Shown: piece after piece, positions 43,948 through 64,000 of the stretch
Layout: each line of letters opens with the position of its first letter
Position numbering within the stretch: the stretch's first letter is position 1
Notes under the pieces: generated by a model
Seen by the model: only the letters and a program-made list of their open reading frames with translations
Databases searched by the model: none
Told to the model about the DNA's origin: nothing
Position numbers and translations under genes: made by a program
IMG/VR virus record: IMGVR_UViG_3300036770_006330
DNA: 64,000 nucleotides
Reading direction: 5' to 3' (one strand)
Origin: a virus

Positions 43948-44482
43948 CTCGCTTCCCTTTCTAGTAGGTACTTTTCAGAGTAGCGAAATGACTAGTACTA
44001 AGTCAAGCACTCTTGTACCTCGTTCGTCAAGTTCGCTCAGGTGACTTCGGGCACTTGTGCCCCAGACAGCGCAAGCCGAGTTCGTGCGTTCAGGCGACCA
44101 CGCACAGCGTTCCCACCCAAACCGAGTTCGTCTGCCATCACCAGACCCGTTTCAGCCAGCGAAGACCAGATGCTGATGTCTTCCAACGGGGCTCTTGGGC
44201 GGCTGTCCCACACCATCTTCTTTTGACGGTGGCGGATGAACCCCGACGGGTCGCCTGTTTAGACAATGGGTCTGCAAAAAGCAAGTTGCTCGCACCAGCA
44301 TAATGTCTGGACTGAGGAGAAGTTTGGACTTAGTCCAACTCTGGACAGCATCCACGTTCCAACTGGGACTTGACCCCAGAAGCCCCGCCATCTGGAGTCG
44401 CACGGGGACTGAGTTGCCCTTCTGGGGTGTTTGGGGGCAAAGAAAAACCCCGCCGAGTGGGGGTATCTCGGCGGGGTAGTCC

Positions 44483-44674
44483 TTATTCGGGTTGTGTCGT
44501 CACTCCCGAGAGAGCCCACCACAAGCGGAACGCTTGCCCGTGAACCTCACGGAGAGTTTCGGTCACCTCTTGCTCAGGGCTCGCCTCAACGTAGTCCTGA
44601 ATGATGTTGGCGAGTTGTCGTGCGACGCTCGCAACATCCAAGAGAGTGACTGACGACTGAGTTGGCTCAGTCAT
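44483..44674 (-). CDS. Cassette gene, hypothetical (63 aa)
   Basis: GGAGG RBS with its own promoter and terminator. Confidence 0.7.
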   Translation of the reverse strand: MTEPTQSSVTLLDVASVARQLANIIQDYVEASPEQEVTETLREVHGQAFRLWWALSGVTTQPE

Positions 44675-44955
44675 TAGTACCTCCACCAAGCAGGATAGTG
44701 GGGTACAAGTGGGACAGCAAGCATTTCCCGTGTGTTTGCCGTCACATACCAGCGCAAACGGTTGGGAGAGCCGTCGTCGAGCCAGCCGGCTTCGAGCAAA
44801 CCGGCTTCGAGCAAACCGGATGGTCTTCTTGCGGGGCTTCCGATGTCCCATCATCTTCTTCTGACGGTGGCGGAAGAGCAGTTCGCCCGTTCGGGGGCAA
44901 CAAAAAAAGGGGGCAAGCGCACCTCATTGGTACGCCTGCCCCCTTTCAGGGGGTA

Positions 44956-45297
44956 CTACGGATAGCGAAGTTCTGACTTTTTACGGCGAGTGAACGTGAG
45001 TGGGCTGTTTTCTAGTTCCTTTGTAAGTTGCCAGCGCATTTTTGGCAGACAACCACGCAGGTACTTTTGTAGTCGGGCTACGGCGTAGAGGCGCATAGGG
45101 AATAATCCGTATGCCCACTCGGGTAGCTCGTCTTTATCGTTATCAACGATGACCCAATACGGCTTCACTTTTCCGTACTCAATGCGGTTCACACGCCGTA
45201 TTGAGTAGCGCACCTGATTTCGGTGCGAAGTGTCGCCACTTTCGGGCGCATCGTCGCATTGACCGAAGTCAAAACGGGGTACGCCTTCTGTTTCCAT
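44956..45297 (-). CDS. Cassette gene, hypothetical
   Basis: Leaderless ATG with a terminator downstream. Confidence 0.65.
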   Translation of the reverse strand: METEGVPRFDFGQCDDAPESGDTSHRNQVRYSIRRVNRIEYGKVKPYWVIVDNDKDELPEWAYGLFPMRLYAVARLQKYLRGCLPKMRWQLTKELENSPLTFTRRKKSELRYP

Positions 45298-45950
45298 AGA
45301 GGTCACTCTATCCCACTTATGCCCAATGAGCAAGTTTTAGTTTGTGACCCACGACACGTTTTCCTCGGTCACGACCCCAACCACCGAGAGTGACCGCCTA
45401 ACCACGCCTGTTTGTAAGGGTTGCCTAACTGTTAGGTGAGCCTTACGTTGATTTATCACTAAGCCAGCCAGACCACCAGCGATGTCGAGAACTCCTCGCC
45501 AGCTCTGGGCTTCGCCACGGGGCTTCAGAGGCGAACGCGTGAAGAACTCCCAGTCGCCGTCGGGGGGCGGGCGCAGCACGGGAACTTATCCAATAAACCG
45601 TTTGGTTGCGGGCACAACCATCTTGCTTCACCCAAAGAAGTTGCCAACATACCGAGTTGATGTCGGAAAGTCAATGTCCCAGATGGCGACGCACGTCCTT
45701 CTCGAGAAGACCTCAAGAGCCCCGCAACAAACCGCCATCAAACCGACGGTGGCGGAAGAAGGACAAAAAAAATCGGGCGCCCCCGTTGCTGGGAACGCCC
45801 GACTTCTTTGCTTGATTTCAGAACAGCACTAGTGCTACTAGAACTGCGACTGCAAGTGACTGAATCACGACAGGTGCTTCCTTTCTGCCGTTACGCGTTG
45901 TAGTGATAGGTGACGCGCGAGCGTACACGGTCTTTTGGGAAATGTCAACT

Positions 45951-60590: not shown

Positions 60591-60826
60591 CTCAAGTCAC
60601 AAAGTAAATACTTGACAATTATCGGTGGGGTATGTACCTTGTACCCCACAGTACCTACTACCTAAGGAGTGCCCGTGCCCAAAGAATTCATGGTCAAGTT
60701 CACAGTGCCTGACGAGGTCGACCCAGACGAGTTAATCAGCCTCATGGCAGATGACTTCTTCTACGCCAACCGAGAGACAGAGGACTTCGGTCCGCTGCTG
60801 GGTCACATCTTGTTCGAGGTCGTCAA

Positions 60827-63291
60827 ATGAGCGACAAACTTCTCGACCTCGAAGAAAGTCTCACTCACGCTATTCATGTGCTCCAAGGAGTGCTGAATGA
60901 TGTGAAGTCAGGGAAATACACCAAAGAACAAGCAGCGCTAGATGCTGAGAACCTCACATACACCGAGGGTCTCGACTTCATCTCTGCTTTAAGCGATTAC
61001 GCCGAGGAGGAGTAATGAACAAAGAACAACGCGATAACGACTGGTCGCAGATATGCGATGAAATCTTCAAATCATTGGCTGAAGCAGAGAAGACTCTCGC
61101 AGCCATGAAGAAGGCTCTCACCACAAACGCAGACCAGAAAACCATCTTCGATGTTGCCAAAACATTCAATGCGATTTCCCGTGATATCGAGTTCCTCATG
61201 GATGATGCGGAACTTTGGGTGAAACTCAACGAAATCGAGGACTTCATCTACAAGCCACGCTTGGAGGTAATTAAATGAACGGAATGCCCTACAAGGTCTT
61301 TCGCGCGGACCACTGGATAAGCGTGGAGTTTCTCGGCTCTGCTGGGAAAATAACTTTCCGCTGCGAGGACGACGACGAAGCAATTAAACAGGAACTTTTC
61401 TGGCAGGACGTCATTGCGATGGCAGAGAACTGGGATTCACACCTAGAGGAGGATGACGACGATGTGGTTTCATGACCTGCACCGGTATTACATGGTGCTG
61501 CGCGCGCGCTGGTACTTCTATCGAGAGGGGTACCGCAATGGCGGGCTGCCATGTTGGCACTGTGTCTTCGTGCCAGACGAAATCGATGGGAAGTTCTACC
61601 CAATCTGGTTGACTTGTACCAATCCAGAATTCGGAGGAGTTCAGGACGATGGCTGCAACTGGGGAAATGTGTGAACTGTTTCGAAAGTCAGACCTGCGTT
61701 GACTGCGGCATCGACACGCTCGAAGCCAAGGAGTACTACATGGTTACTGACAACTGCTGGAAGCGTGCTGGGATGCGACCGTATGACGGGATGCTCTGTA
61801 TTGGCTGCCTAGAGTCTCGCCTTGGAAAGAAGTTGACTCCCCGCAACTTCAGTGAGTGCCCGCTGAACTGGCGCAACACCCTGGTCCCCGACTACGCGTC
61901 GGACCGCCTGGTCAGCCGTCTGTACCATGGCGGCAAGAACTCGAAGTGGGCTCGAGGAGCACTGGCTGCCATCGAAGAACTCAGCCGCGGGGAGGCACGC
62001 CTATTGGAATCCCTCACTCTTGTGGAGTTTCGCTAACACAACGGTGGTGGATGATGTTGACAAAGATGAACATAACCATTAAAGTTATTAAACAAGTAGC
62101 TCCGGCTGCAGAAGGGAAACAATCATGACCGTTACGACACCAGTCGAATCGGACGCAAAGGTTCAAGTCCGCGTTGAAGTAACCGAGACTCGGCTTAGCA
62201 CCGAGTACTACGACATCGACGCCAAGGACCTGCCCCCAAACTGGCACTCGATGAACCAGGACGAACAACACGTCTGGATTCGCGCGCGCGGCAATGTTGT
62301 GAAGAACAACGTTGAAGAGATTCAGGAACGCACTGATGGGGTGTTCCTCTCCTGGGAGAAATCGCACCCGGAATGGACCGTTACGTTTACGTATACACAA
62401 TCCGAGATTGTCTCTGCAGCCAATCGCGAGGCTGCAATTAATAAAGCACGCATGGCAATTGCCCGTACGTACGATGACCCAGACGGTGCCATCCAGGTCC
62501 TTGGCGACGCTGATGTTGACGTCCTCGACGGACGCTGGGGTCTCTGATGGAGCCGATAAAGATTGGCGCTGACGTCGTCTACATCTGGGAAGACAACCCG
62601 TCCCAGGAGCTCCATGGATATATATCCTTTGCTGACTGGGAAGATGATGCGGACGAAGACGCGTATGGCGTAAACGACCTCGACATTTTCTTTTTCTCGA
62701 GTGAAGCTGAGCTCCCGGAGCTAATGAAGCCGCATAATGGCTCTGACTTCCGGGTCCTATCCTTCGAGTATCGCATGGCTGACGGTGGTGGATGATGGGA
62801 ATACTTGATGTGAAAGAGACCGAAGACCTGGTCAATCGACTGTTCCTTTGGGATGCCATCGAAAAACGCGGCACGCCAATCACCAATGACATTTATGTCG
62901 TCGATATCGACATGTTGTCCCATGAGCAACGACTGGTTATCACCGGTGGTGACCCTGAGGAGATTCAAAAGCTTGTCGACGAGTTCGGCAGCACGCTAGA
63001 ATCACAGTTGACACTGTCGATACGTATATTTGCCAAGCTGGTAAACACCATCTATGACAAGGCGTCGCCGGCGCAGCAAGGTCAGATTATGGACCTCATC
63101 CGCAACACACTTAAAGACATCGAGGAGGAAGAATGAAACACGTAGTAGTACTGGGAATTGCCTTCGAAGTGGAGGCGGACGACCGCGAACAGGCTGAAGC
63201 CAAGGCTTTTGCTGCGCTGCAGGAGCACACCCGCGCGACCGTAACGGACGGGTTCTGGGTAGAAGACACCCGTGAGCTCCAAGGGTCCTAA
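60827..63291 (+). CDS. Operon(s) of nine small hypothetical genes (60827-61015, 61015-61278, 61275-61475, ~61462-61674, ~61671-62036, 62125-62547, 62547-62795, 62792-63136, 63133-63291)
   Basis: Consecutive stop/start overlaps and GGAGG RBSs. The 61671-62036 product has CVDC...LCIGCLE.RLG. Confidence 0.7.
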
Positions 63292-63613
63292 TGCTGTCTC
63301 GCGAGCTAAATTTAACTGAAACCCTTCGCCTGGCGCGCCTAGTAGAGGGTAAACCAATCAGCCGCAGCCGGCTGGGGTCTCCATGCCGCTTTGTCCGCCG
63401 CATCGACATACTGGTCCACCTCGTGGTGCCCGAGCTGATTGAAGACGCGTTTCCTCGAGTCGCGCGATATCTCCGACGGACGTCTCCTCGATGGGGCCGC
63501 AGCTGGCGCTCATGGTAAGTAGCTACTAATGGCAAAGTATCTAGCCACGGCAATCATCATCTGGTTCTTCCTATTTTCGTGACAGCTATTTGTTGTTGTA
63601 CTATTTTCTTCCT

Positions 63614-63778
63614 ATGAAGAACGTCAACAAGACAAGGCACTGGCGCTGCGGTACATGCGGCAATCAACTCACGACATTTGTAAACCTGAGTTGTCCACCA
63701 GAGTGCGGCAACCCGAGTGTGCACAGCACGCGTCGTGTTGTTATGGAGCAAGTTAAAAAATTAGTAAACGCTTCGTAG
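63614..63778 (+). CDS. Small Zn-ribbon protein
   Basis: WRCGTCG...CPPECGN..H; ends just before the last repeat copy. Confidence 0.5.
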   Translation: MKNVNKTRHWRCGTCGNQLTTFVNLSCPPECGNPSVHSTRRVVMEQVKKLVNAS

Positions 63779-64000
63779 TATCGCTAACCCTTTGACGGTG
63801 GCGGATGAGGTGTGATAGAAATGAAACATGCACCTCACACAAAATGCTCCGACCACTTGGAATCAAGCTGCTGAAGTAAGCGCATCACAAATCTTTTCGA
63901 GTTTGACTTCGGCCCACGTCAATCTCGGAACTTTGCGCACGACGTTCGAACGCCTTTCTACCTCGTATTTCTCGGACTTTTCTGACTGCTCGAAAGAACG

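What the first reader, a model, noticed from the sequence alone, without database searches (positions are those of the whole stretch)
44225..63808. Polar 15-bp repeat punctuating an array of self-contained gene cassettes
Seen: 18 copies of RACGGTGGYGKAWGA, mostly 0.6-1.1 kb apart (maximum 3.7 kb), all on the + strand whether neighbouring genes run + or -. In 44-56 kb the unit is stereotyped: repeat, intrinsic terminator, one or a few unrelated small genes, their own sigmaA promoter, a GC-rich linker, a CGGGGCT box, then TCTTCTTTT plus the next repeat. The motif lies outside those transcription units and is non-palindromic, so it appears to act as DNA. Established analogues: mycobacteriophage L5 stoperators (oriented with transcription, unlike here), PeSL shuffling elements of T4-like phages, integron attC arrays, and Chi/KOPS polar sites; none fits exactly. 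Inference: an undescribed phage system in which a directional site serves either as a recombination joint for shuffling autonomous early genes, or as a loading/stop signal during DNA entry or nuclease attack.
Basis: partly seen in the sequence, partly recalled or inferred. Interest (0 to 1): 0.92.

Follow-up and report, generated by a model that had tools for sequence, protein, structure and literature searches.

The report
Polar boundary site of phage gene cassettes
A strictly one-directional 15-letter DNA signal marks the borders between small, self-contained accessory gene units in one region of a family of large uncultured phages. Related phages gain, lose, duplicate, flip and reorder these units at the signal, so it is a new kind of gene-shuffling joint whose reader protein is unknown.

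Summary
The window holds 18 copies of the 15-mer, all on the + strand (0 expected by chance).

The same site occurs as arrays in at least 29 related IMG/VR loci. I counted 211 copies (177 exact, 34 with one mismatch) and none on the opposite strand. In near-complete 129-170 kb genomes the copies are confined to one 15-20 kb stretch. That stretch lies between a SNF2 helicase and an AAA ATPase in the window and its closer relatives.

The site sits at transcription-unit borders whatever the gene direction, and is sometimes inside coding sequence, so it acts as DNA. Among relatives the cassettes differ in content, order and copy number. One operon is inverted while the sites keep their direction. 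Homology breaks cluster at the site.

No tyrosine or serine recombinase, Y1 transposase, RecT or T7-type RNA polymerase was found.

Best reading (about 0.5): a protein-bound boundary site that serves as the recombination joint of a hyperplastic early region. It is PeSL-like in effect, but the repeat is a separate asymmetric site. It is neither an integron nor a stoperator set, and not Chi-like genome-wide.

The scan has noted analogous boundary repeats in other phage groups.

The parts
44225..44239 (+). 15-mer copy 1 (leftward-cassette type; box at 44187-44193)
44863..44877 (+). 15-mer copy 2 (box at 44832-44838). The cassette 44240-44862 sits at another array position in relative L058.
45745..45759 (+). 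15-mer copy 3 (no box in the usual direction)
46390..46404 (+). 15-mer copy 4. Cassette 46390-47077 is absent from L058.
47077..47091 (+). 15-mer copy 5
48076..48090 (+). 15-mer copy 6 (box 48044-48050)
49169..49183 (+). 15-mer copy 7 (box 49136-49142)
49899..49913 (+). 15-mer copy 8 (box 49863-49869)
50725..50739 (+). 15-mer copy 9 (box 50692-50698)
51464..51478 (+). 15-mer copy 10 (box 51431-51437); terminator side of the XRE operon cassette
53456..53470 (+). 15-mer copy 11 (box 53424-53430); promoter side of the XRE operon cassette
54283..54297 (+). 15-mer copy 12 (box 54251-54257, inside a 14-bp-arm palindrome)
55860..55874 (+). 15-mer copy 13, in the divergent region between leftward and rightward gene blocks (box 55840-55846)
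59533..59547 (+). 15-mer copy 14, between convergent genes. In two 98%-identical relatives an indel ends 2 bp left of the orthologous copy.
60276..60290 (+). 15-mer copy 15, head of the leftward HA+HTH cassette (box 60263-60269)
62040..62054 (+). 15-mer copy 16, + gene context; a + strand promoter starts 2 bp after it (62057-62085)
62781..62795 (+). 15-mer copy 17, inside the stop/start overlap of + genes 62547-62795 and 62792-63136
63794..63808 (+). 15-mer copy 18, 19 bp upstream of the start of a + gene whose orthologues in distant relatives are also preceded by, or begin within, a copy
44905..44947 (-). intrinsic terminator of a leftward cassette, next to copy 2
45766..45809 (-). intrinsic terminator next to copy 3
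46419..46455 (-). intrinsic terminator next to copy 4
49202..49238 (-). intrinsic terminator next to copy 7
50757..50793 (-). intrinsic terminator next to copy 9
51497..51532 (-). intrinsic terminator next to copy 10
50615..50643 (-). sigma-70-like promoter of a leftward cassette (example; others at 45646-45674, 46926-46954, 47706-47734, 49708-49736, 55419-55448)
51546..53263 (-). five-gene XRE operon cassette (XRE HTH_3 protein at 52418-52651). It is inverted relative to the sites in relatives L017, L071, L111 and L101.
59790..60179 (-). HA (PF03457) + sigma-70 region 4/Mor-type HTH protein. It lies inside the array and opposite to the site direction in all 7 array-bearing records searched for it. 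Candidate reader of the site; untested.
41689..43725 (-). SNF2-type helicase, conserved left flank of the array
56702..59112 (+). AAA_5 ATPase and 534-aa partner, a conserved block inside or right of the array in relatives

Best explanation
Proposed function. The 15-mer with its pyrimidine tract forms a roughly 24-bp asymmetric site. It is a double-stranded DNA boundary element. It separates independently transcribed accessory gene cassettes (each with its own promoter and terminator) in the hyperplastic early region of a family of uncultured, probably actinobacterial, 129-170 kb phages.

It is most likely bound by a sequence-specific protein that reads an asymmetric site. It is also the joint at which cassettes are inserted, lost, duplicated, flipped and exchanged between related phages.

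The strict co-orientation is what such a joint needs. Direct repeats give viable insertions and deletions, whereas inverted copies would invert genome segments.

What is shown: the DNA-level nature of the site, its localisation, its polarity, its position at unit borders, and cassette turnover with breakpoints at the site.

What is inferred: that a protein binds it, and that recombination is stimulated at the site rather than merely tolerated there. Possible routes are a break, a nick or stall, or short-homology exchange; no classical recombinase is encoded.
For: 1. Polarity. 211 copies (177 exact, 34 with one mismatch) in 30 sequences lie on one strand per sequence, with none on the other strand. 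In five whole records, 54 copies lie on one strand per record.

2. Localisation. Copies span 121.8-140.7 kb of a 160-kb genome, 16.2-31.3 kb of a 170-kb genome and 72.7-91.0 kb of a 145-kb genome, all judged complete or nearly so. There are none in window 1-44 kb.

3. Independence from gene direction.
- The XRE operon is leftward in the window, G001 and G004, and rightward in G002, L017, L071, L111 and L101, while the sites and the ATPase block keep their direction.
- Distant lineages have nearly all array genes running with the site, while the window has most running against it.
- Copies overlap start or stop codons in some genomes and are non-coding at the orthologous place in others.

4. 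Cassette turnover.
- Cassette order strings differ among relatives between conserved flanks.
- Window cassette 44240-44862 sits elsewhere in L058, and the alignments end at the 15-mer.
- G004 has one more 667-bp motif-to-motif unit than G001.
- The only two discontinuities between those 98%-identical arrays end 0 and 2 bp from a copy's left edge.

5. Breakpoint statistics.
- Homology ends exactly at the last base of the 15-mer in 10 of 68 break ends, where about 2 are expected.
- There are 35 copy pairs with only the right flank homologous and 10 with only the left flank homologous. The homology often runs up to the 15-mer.
- Gene pairs separated by a site stay adjacent in other genomes 55% of the time, against 74% without a site.

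6. Conservation. The site is kept in lineages whose shared genes are only 65-70% identical in DNA. It is absent from cultured distant relatives, and no array was found in bacterial species genomes in a truncated scan.

7. Possible reader. A two-domain DNA-binding protein with an invariant recognition helix is embedded in every array-bearing record searched for it.
Against: - Only intergenic breakpoints are viable, and nearly every unit border carries a site. Some coincidence of breakpoints with the site is therefore expected without any causal role.
- The adjacency effect is modest (55% against 74%), and the counts are not independent.
- Several indels between close relatives lie far from any site (L018/L075, L007/L123).
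- No tyrosine or serine recombinase, Y1 transposase or RecT was found in four near-complete genomes.
- Selection for shuffling alone is a weak force for keeping hundreds of copies exact, which argues that the site has a direct function still unknown.
- Variable positions of the 15-mer do not clearly go with either flank.
- Homologues of the candidate binder, with the same recognition helix, occur in two phage contigs that have no such site within 10 kb.
Confidence: 0.5

Rival explanations
1. Transcription control site, with shuffling as a by-product. A phage regulator binds the asymmetric site at every unit border. It acts either as an orientation-dependent roadblock or insulator (stoperator-like, blocking read-through in one direction) or as an activator site next to rightward promoters. 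The repeats then happen to serve as short homologies, as PeSLs do.
For: - The site lies between terminator and next promoter in leftward units.
- It abuts the -35 hexamer, 1-5 bp away, of rightward promoters in the window (62040) and three times in L037 by the promoter scan. L093 and L059 show the same by eye.
- Exact conservation of every copy fits direct selection on binding.
- There is precedent for monomeric two-domain repressors reading asymmetric 13-mers at more than 20 sites (PMC9283540).
- HTH proteins (HA+HTH, XRE) are encoded inside the array.
- A tandem pair of the same 15-mer stands upstream of a gene in two unrelated-looking high-GC contigs (L003, L113).
Against: - The direction of the site does not follow transcription. 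An operon is flipped while its sites are not, whereas stoperators lose function when reversed.
- Distance to leftward promoters varies from 70 to 165 bp, and the site is upstream of them, so it cannot silence them.
- Leftward units already have 16-19-pair terminators.
- An orientation-blind operator would not stay 211:0 co-oriented.
Confidence: 0.2
2. Polar signal for a machine that moves along DNA, or strand-specific nick site. A bound protein, or the sequence itself, would stop, pause or modulate something in one direction. Candidates are a replication fork (Tus-Ter or rDNA fork-barrier type), an exonuclease (Chi-like) or entering DNA. Alternatively a nickase cuts one strand there (T5/phiKMV-type localized nicks). 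Stalling or nicking would make the site recombinogenic on one side.
For: - Absolute co-orientation independent of genes.
- Variable DNA lies mostly on the left (5') side of the site. Both G001/G004 discontinuities lie on that side, and there are 35 right-only against 10 left-only homologous flank pairs.
- The position after the terminator of each tandem unit, plus local recombination, resembles rDNA fork barriers (own knowledge).
- The core shares 6 of 8 letters with E. coli Chi (own knowledge; a resemblance only).
Against: - The site is confined to about 10% of the genome and tied one-to-one to transcription-unit borders, not spread genome-wide or placed at ends.
- A 15-24-bp site is unlike the 5-8-nt Chi or KOPS words.
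- The left-side variability is confounded, because the left side is non-coding linker in leftward units.
Confidence: 0.15
3. RNA element: the 15-mer, with the box in a hairpin loop, would work in transcripts, for example as a nut-like antitermination signal, a ribosome-binding enhancer or a small RNA.
For: - Copy 55860 lies between the leftward early promoter region and the first gene.
- About a quarter of box-bearing copies have 8-17-bp arms around the box, with arm sequences that differ between copies.
- In + contexts the 15-mer is often 0-35 nt from a start codon.
Against: - The site is sense to some genes, antisense to others, and sits behind strong terminators in most leftward units.
- The arms are almost purely Watson-Crick (253 WC, 3 G-T, 7 A-C), with no wobble bias to name a strand.
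- There is no Rfam match.
- The hairpin is missing from most copies, including most in the window.
Confidence: 0.03

Closest known systems
PeSL (promoter-early stem-loop) cassettes of T4-type phages RB49/phi1 (Arbiol et al. 2010, PMC2839356)
   Same: Both are repeated intergenic elements concentrated in a hyperplastic region of small genes of unknown function. Each gene unit has its own sigma-70-type promoter and stem-loop terminator. Insertions, deletions and replacements between relatives break at the repeats (for PeSL; here).
   Different: In PeSLs the conserved repeat is the promoter and terminator itself, and it follows the gene. Here the conserved repeat is a separate asymmetric 15-24-bp site lying between terminator and promoter. 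It keeps one direction whatever the gene direction and is conserved letter for letter across distant lineages. Mini-circles could not be tested here.
Stoperators of Cluster A mycobacteriophages (L5 gp71; TipsytheTRex repressor, PMC9283540)
   Same: Both are many copies (more than 20 against 7-20) of a short asymmetric site in short intergenic spaces of an actinobacteriophage. In stoperators the site is read by a monomeric two-domain protein.
   Different: Stoperator direction follows transcription and is required for function, and the sites are spread over the whole genome of temperate phages. Here direction ignores transcription, the sites are confined to one region, and no integrase was found.
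Integron attC cassette arrays
   Same: Both are co-oriented recombination sites punctuating an array of small, unrelated, exchangeable gene cassettes. Gene direction within a cassette is free in principle.
   Different: There is no IntI-type tyrosine recombinase in four near-complete genomes. The site is not an imperfect inverted repeat with complementary R''/R' cores. The cassettes carry their own promoters and terminators.
Polar protein-DNA barriers that are recombination hotspots (Tus-Ter; rDNA replication fork barriers bound by Fob1/TTF-I); own knowledge
   Same: Both are asymmetric, strictly co-oriented sites in the spacer after each tandem transcription unit, and copy-number change and excision occur next to them.
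   Different: No evidence here for fork arrest or for a Tus/Fob1-like protein. The array holds units in both directions.
Boundary repeats of early-gene cassettes noted earlier in this scan in other phage groups (41-bp palindromes, a 27-bp motif, a 31-bp two-armed site)
   Same: They share the general layout: a family-specific repeat at every early-gene unit border, and shuffling at the borders.
   Different: Those repeats are palindromic or two-armed. This one is asymmetric and strictly polar.

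Membership tests
Integron (IntI + attC array) | IntI-type tyrosine recombinase encoded with the array | tested here: not met
   PF00589 has no match in G001, G002, G003 or G005 (3 of them at least 98% complete), while the controls matched. None among the window proteins scanned.
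Integron (IntI + attC array) | attC: imperfect inverted repeat with complementary conserved cores at its two ends | tested here: not met
   The conserved 15-mer is non-palindromic. Palindromes occur around the separate box in only 26% of box-bearing copies, and there the centre is conserved and the arms vary, the reverse of attC.
Integron (IntI + attC array) | Co-oriented sites separating exchangeable cassettes | tested here: met
   211 copies on one strand and 0 on the other; cassette content and order vary.
PeSL mobile regulatory cassettes | The repeated conserved element is itself a sigma-70 early promoter plus stem-loop terminator | tested here: not met
   Promoters and terminators are present in each unit, but their sequences differ between units. 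The conserved repeat lies between them.
PeSL mobile regulatory cassettes | Concentrated in a hyperplastic region of small genes of unknown function; indels and replacements between relatives break at the repeats | tested here: met
   Confined to 15-20 kb. Cassette proteins have no Pfam family. Breakpoints at the repeat.
PeSL mobile regulatory cassettes | Mini-circles formed by exchange between neighbouring repeats | not testable with these tools
Stoperators (Cluster A mycobacteriophage repressor sites) | Direction of the asymmetric site follows the direction of transcription | tested here: not met
   Sites keep one strand across leftward and rightward genes. The XRE operon is flipped between relatives while the sites are not. 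The feature is as stated in PMC9283540.
Stoperators (Cluster A mycobacteriophage repressor sites) | Sites distributed throughout the genome of a temperate phage | tested here: not met
   Confined to about 10% of the genome. No integrase found.
Chi / KOPS-type polar words | Short (5-8 nt) word spread genome-wide with strand skew | tested here: not met
   The conserved site is 15-24 bp and is absent from about 90% of each genome.
Start-associated sequences of Cluster K mycobacteriophages (own knowledge; PMC3203893 listed, not read) | Repeat lies a few bp upstream of start codons, in gene direction | tested here: not met
   Most copies lie behind terminators and 70-165 bp upstream of promoters, on the strand opposite to the genes.
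Single-subunit phage RNA polymerase promoters | T7-type RNA polymerase gene present; promoters point with the genes | tested here: inconclusive
   PF00940 gave no match, but the controls could not confirm the search. There is no PDB relative of an RNA polymerase in the giant proteins. The direction rule is not met.
Localized single-strand nick sites (T5, phiKMV-like phages; own knowledge) | Strand-specific nick at a conserved motif in virion DNA | not testable with these tools

The most novel reading that the evidence does not exclude
The sites are fixed docking points of a phage cassette-capture system that works without any known recombinase. A site-specific cut or nick at the left edge of the 15-mer would be repaired by end-joining, fold-back synthesis or template switching. 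That repair would insert foreign units in either direction, leave the hypervariable GC-rich, palindrome-rich linkers seen only on that side, and regenerate the site each time. This would amount to an 'integron without an integrase', run by an unknown phage nuclease or DNA-binding protein.
Probability: 0.15. Interest if true: 0.85.

Novelty: new variant of a known kind. Interest (0 to 1): 0.62.

Why it matters
Hyperplastic regions full of small early genes are where phages keep much of their host-takeover and anti-defence repertoire. How these regions turn over so fast is understood only for a few T4-type phages, through PeSLs.

Here a whole family of large uncultured phages shares a separate, strictly polar site conserved letter for letter at every unit border. 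There is direct comparative evidence that units are swapped, duplicated and even flipped between sites that never flip.

This gives a defined 24-bp sequence and a short list of candidate proteins. With them one can test whether phages have dedicated boundary or joint elements, and whether recombination there is stimulated by a barrier, a nick or a new enzyme.

It also gives a simple marker for finding the accessory-gene region in metagenomic contigs of this family.

Tried and rejected
Read-level tests
No read-level test for circles, junctions, nicks or RNA ends could be made.
- The look-up of encoding contigs for a window protein gave gene calls but no DNA beyond the window.

Known families and relatives
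- Rfam scan of 43-64 kb: only one sub-threshold chance hit.
- No near-identical DNA in cultured phages. The cultured distant relatives GMA6, ChisanaKitsune and Cantare have no array.
- The bacterial species-genome scan gave only singletons; the one locus with two copies has them on opposite strands.
- Literature search for the 15-mer found no occurrence of the full sequence.

Promoter readings
- An alternative-sigma two-block promoter was rejected because only one contiguous block is conserved.
- A TAnnnT hexamer follows the box in only about 9 of 89 copies.
- A phage RNA polymerase promoter was rejected on the direction rule, and no polymerase was found.
- No consistent + strand promoter or terminator was seen in the modules of the window.

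Structured RNA
- Rejected because the arms are Watson-Crick only and most copies have no hairpin.

Crossover position
- Co-segregation of the four variable positions of the 15-mer with the left or right flank was inconclusive.

Candidate binders
- XRE protein: absent from G003 and G005, and its 77-aa single HTH fits a dimer on a dyad rather than an asymmetric site.
- HA+HTH protein: the model is moderately confident (mean pLDDT 81.5, pTM 0.58). It has no significant PDB neighbour, only weak likeness of the C-terminal helices to sigma region 4, resolvase and Mor/C HTH domains.
- Distant HA+HTH homologues lie in contigs without the site.

Strand proxy
- AT skew as a proxy for gene strand proved unreliable in lower-GC relatives. 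I replaced it with a codon-usage gene caller.

Full report
OBSERVATION

The degenerate 15-mer RACGGTGGYGKAWGA occurs 18 times in the window at the stated coordinates, always on the + strand. None of 100 dinucleotide-preserving shuffles gave any match. Allowing one mismatch adds no copy on either strand anywhere in the 64 kb. Spacings are 638-3673 bp, and 12 of 17 lie between 0.6 and 1.1 kb.

It also shows that the genome extends at least 32 kb to the left.

ANATOMY IN THE WINDOW

Gene direction. Genes from 44 to 55.8 kb run on the - strand. Genes from 56.2 to 59.1 kb and from 60.4 kb onward run on the + strand. A short - strand operon lies at 59.5-60.2 kb.

Leftward units. Read in gene direction, a leftward unit runs as follows:
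- the reverse complement of the 15-mer;
- an A-rich 9-mer;
- 15-20 bp further, the box AGCCCCG;
- a GC-rich linker;
- a sigma-70-like promoter, 70-165 bp from the 15-mer;
- one to five genes;
- a strong terminator (16-19 pairs in six units);
- 5-30 bp further, the next 15-mer.

The exact box is present next to 11 of the 14 leftward-type copies.

Rightward contexts. Four copies (59533, 62040, 62781, 63794) lie among + strand genes and have no box.
- Copy 62040 ends 2 bp before a + strand promoter.
- Copy 62781 lies in the stop/start overlap of two + genes that gene callers also found on other contigs.
- Copy 63794 lies 19 bp before a start codon.

Extent of conservation. Over 158 distinct copies from all sequences, conservation covers the 15 positions plus a pyrimidine tract at -9 to -1, with position -1 a pyrimidine in 97%. 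Nothing is conserved to the right.

WHAT PHAGE IS THIS

The window encodes:
- a major capsid protein 45-47% identical to those of Gordonia phages GMA6 and ChisanaKitsune and of Brevibacterium phage Cantare;
- a 3745-aa polyvalent protein with Zeta-toxin, NUDIX, sigma-70 region 4 and DnaJ domains;
- ribonucleotide reductase, primase-helicase, an SNF2 helicase, a ParB-N protein and a PAPS-reductase-like protein.

There is no near DNA match among cultured phages.

THE SITE IS A FAMILY TRAIT

Of these, 29 carry three or more copies of the degenerate motif, spaced 650-850 bp.

Over these loci and the window I counted 177 exact and 34 one-mismatch copies. In each sequence all lie on one strand, and none lies on the other.

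Whole-record scans gave:

| Record | Size and completeness | Copies | Position |
|---|---|---|---|
| G001 | 160 kb, complete | 16 | 121.8-140.7 kb |
| G002 | 170 kb, complete | 7 | 16.2-31.3 kb |
| G003 | 129 kb | 7 | not listed here |
| G005 | 145 kb | 7 | not listed here |
| G004 | 43-kb fragment | 17 | not listed here |

In every record all copies lie on one strand and within 15-20 kb.

The site is therefore neither genome-wide nor bidirectional.

The cultured distant relatives lack the site. Bacterial species genomes gave only chance singletons in a truncated scan. The full 15-mer does not occur in the paper library.

IT ACTS AS DNA, INDEPENDENT OF GENE DIRECTION

I used a codon-usage gene caller and protein families.
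- The window and its closer relatives have mostly leftward cassettes.
- The more distant lineages (G002/L059, L006, L037, L112) have nearly all array genes running with the site. In those lineages the site stands just upstream of rightward promoters or over start codons.

The clearest case is the five-gene XRE operon.
- It is leftward in the window, L058, L021, L076 and L018.
- It is rightward in L017, L071, L111 and L101.
- The flanking sites and the ATPase block keep their direction.
- Protein searches of whole records agree: the XRE gene is opposite to the site in G001 and G004, and runs with it in G002.

The gene after copy 63794 has orthologues in distant relatives. There the 15-mer either precedes the start codon or forms codons 2-6 of the gene. 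The constraint is therefore on the DNA, not on a protein or on one transcript.

CASSETTES TURN OVER AT THE SITE

I cut the arrays at the sites and clustered the pieces. The array lies next to the SNF2 helicase in the window and its closer relatives, and the AAA ATPase block lies to its right or within it. Between these the content differs from genome to genome, for example:
- window: 26 24 25 . 4 27 28 1 29 6 30
- L058: 24 25 4 26 2 27 28 1 29 6 30
- L021: 1 2 7 1 4 8 6 51
- L018: 9 10 5 11 23 12 13

Protein families show the same picture.

Window against L058, which is 75-85% identical:
- window cassette 44240-44862 lies three cassettes further on in L058;
- the three alignments involved end at the last base of a 15-mer or begin 9-33 bp before one;
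- the cassette 46390-47077 is missing from L058, again from site to site.

G001 against G004, whose arrays are 98% identical over 19 kb, show only two discontinuities.
- One is an extra 667-bp site-to-site unit together with a replaced linker.
- The other is a replaced gene end plus an inserted small ORF.
- Both end 0 and 2 bp from the left edge of a 15-mer.
- The second lies in a rightward-gene context, where nothing but the 15-mer is conserved.

Over 34 synteny breaks between non-redundant pairs, homology ends exactly at the last base of the 15-mer in 10 of 68 break ends (about 2 expected). It resumes 1-60 bp before a 15-mer in 12 (about 5 expected).

Among copy pairs from different genomes, 35 share only the right flank and 10 only the left flank. 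The homology often runs up to the 15-mer.

Adjacent gene pairs with a site between them stay adjacent in other genomes 55% of the time, against 74% without one.

Caveats:
- Only intergenic breaks are viable, and almost every unit border has a site.
- Some indels between close relatives lie far from any site.
- The counts are not independent.

NO KNOWN ENZYME

Four near-complete genomes have no match to Phage_integrase, Resolvase, Y1 transposase or RecT. The window's proteins show none either. RNA_pol (T7 type) gave no match, but that search had no positive control. The giant proteins have no RNA-polymerase relative in the PDB.

THE BOX AND ITS PALINDROMES

The box, written on the strand of the 15-mer as CGGGGCT, occurs 140 times in 191 kb of arrays, where 12 are expected. 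Of these, 96 lie 20-39 bp left of a 15-mer. The opposite orientation occurs 57 times.

In 26% of box-bearing copies the box is the centre of a palindrome with 8-17-bp arms, against 2.3% after shuffling. The arm sequences differ from copy to copy. Pairing is almost purely Watson-Crick: 253 WC, 3 G-T and 7 A-C pairs.

This speaks for DNA-level palindromes rather than an RNA structure. It gives no strand. Most window copies lack the palindrome. I have no explanation for it. Fold-back repair next to a break is one possibility, and it belongs to the novel case.

WHO READS THE SITE

This is unknown.

XRE protein (77 aa, a single HTH_3 domain):
- it is highly conserved;
- it is missing from G003 and G005;
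- its single HTH would be expected to bind a dyad.

HA + sigma-70 region 4/Mor-type HTH protein (59790-60179, - strand):
- it is present in all seven array-bearing records searched for it;
- it is always inside the array and always opposite to the site direction, even where all other genes run with the site;
- its 52 homologue clusters keep the same two-domain build, and the recognition helix (SRQRVHQI) is invariant;
- the model is moderately confident (mean pLDDT 81.5, pTM 0.58) but has no significant PDB neighbour.

A monomeric two-domain protein reading an asymmetric 13-mer is known for stoperators (PMC9283540), so this protein is a reasonable first candidate. However, homologues of 40-44% identity with the same helix lie in two phage contigs that have no such site within 10 kb. 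The link is only a correlation.

WEIGHING THE EXPLANATIONS

A pure transcription-control site should follow its promoter when a unit is flipped, and stoperators fail when reversed. Here 211 copies never flip, although units do.

A genome-wide tracking signal is excluded by the localisation.

Two classes of model explain the polarity:
- a recombination joint, where direct repeats are viable and inverted repeats are not;
- a local polar barrier or nick, which would itself be recombinogenic.

Both fit the breakpoint data, and they may be one mechanism.

I therefore commit to a protein-bound boundary site that is the joint of cassette exchange (0.5). The rivals are the regulatory reading (0.2), the polar barrier or nick reading (0.15) and an RNA element (0.03). 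The rest is unassigned.

The exact conservation of every copy argues that the site has a direct function beyond evolvability. That function remains unidentified.

COMPARISON WITH WHAT IS KNOWN

- In effect the system works like PeSL cassettes of T4-type phages (PMC2839356). It is not a member, because the conserved repeat is not the promoter-terminator itself and does not follow the gene.
- It is not an integron: there is no IntI, the site has no attC structure, and the cassettes carry their own promoters.
- It is not a stoperator set: both the direction rule and the genome-wide spread fail.
- It is not Chi/KOPS-like in distribution.
- Earlier notes of this scan describe family-specific boundary repeats in other phage groups. 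Those are palindromic, whereas this one is asymmetric and strictly polar.

I rate it a new variant of a known kind, with interest 0.62.

NOT DONE

Noticed in passing
window 9614-20851 (+): A 3745-aa polyvalent protein in the head module carries Zeta-toxin/AAA_33, NUDIX, sigma-70 region 4 and DnaJ domains. The first 1850 residues have no family. Other notes of the scan propose that it is a processed, capsid-packaged polyprotein.
   Followed up: partly
L003 (reverse strand, about 3028-3100 of the reversed locus) and L113 131-187: Two high-GC viral contigs that look unrelated to this family carry the exact 15-mer as a tandem pair, 42-49 bp apart. The pair lies upstream of a conserved hairpin that encloses a ribosome-binding site. 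The same site may therefore be an operator in another phage group. No HA+HTH homologue was found in those records.
   Followed up: partly
window 44.0-56.0 kb linkers, for example 50600-50724, 46300-46389; G001 (L121) 692-815: The GC-rich linkers left of the 15-mer are hypervariable even between 98%-identical genomes. They are rich in short palindromic words and in a recurring word (GGGACATC and its complement) that often forms the palindrome arms around the box.
   Followed up: partly
window 59533, 62040, 62781, 63794; L093: In rightward-gene contexts of the window and L093, a second short conserved word (AGTATCGC, or close to it) lies 6-9 bp upstream of the 15-mer, even inside coding sequence at 62781. 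It is not conserved at the orthologous place in G001.
   Followed up: partly
window 23694-25663 (-): Three adjacent 2OG-Fe(II) oxygenase-family genes (two 2OG-FeII_Oxy_3 with weak TET/JBP-like hits, and one PhyH). Together with a ParB-N protein (32508-33278) and a PAPS-reductase-like protein (39492-40619), they suggest DNA base modification.
   Followed up: no
L122 (reversed) 353-1687; L027, L040: Tandem 667-bp cassettes share their promoter-proximal half (88% identical) but not the rest. These are chimeric paralogues rather than simple duplicates.
   Followed up: partly
window 36485-37510 (-): A DUF932 protein is conserved near the array in relatives, and also in an unrelated 68%-GC actinophage contig (L248) that carries a WhiB gene and a Y1 transposase gene.
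   Followed up: no
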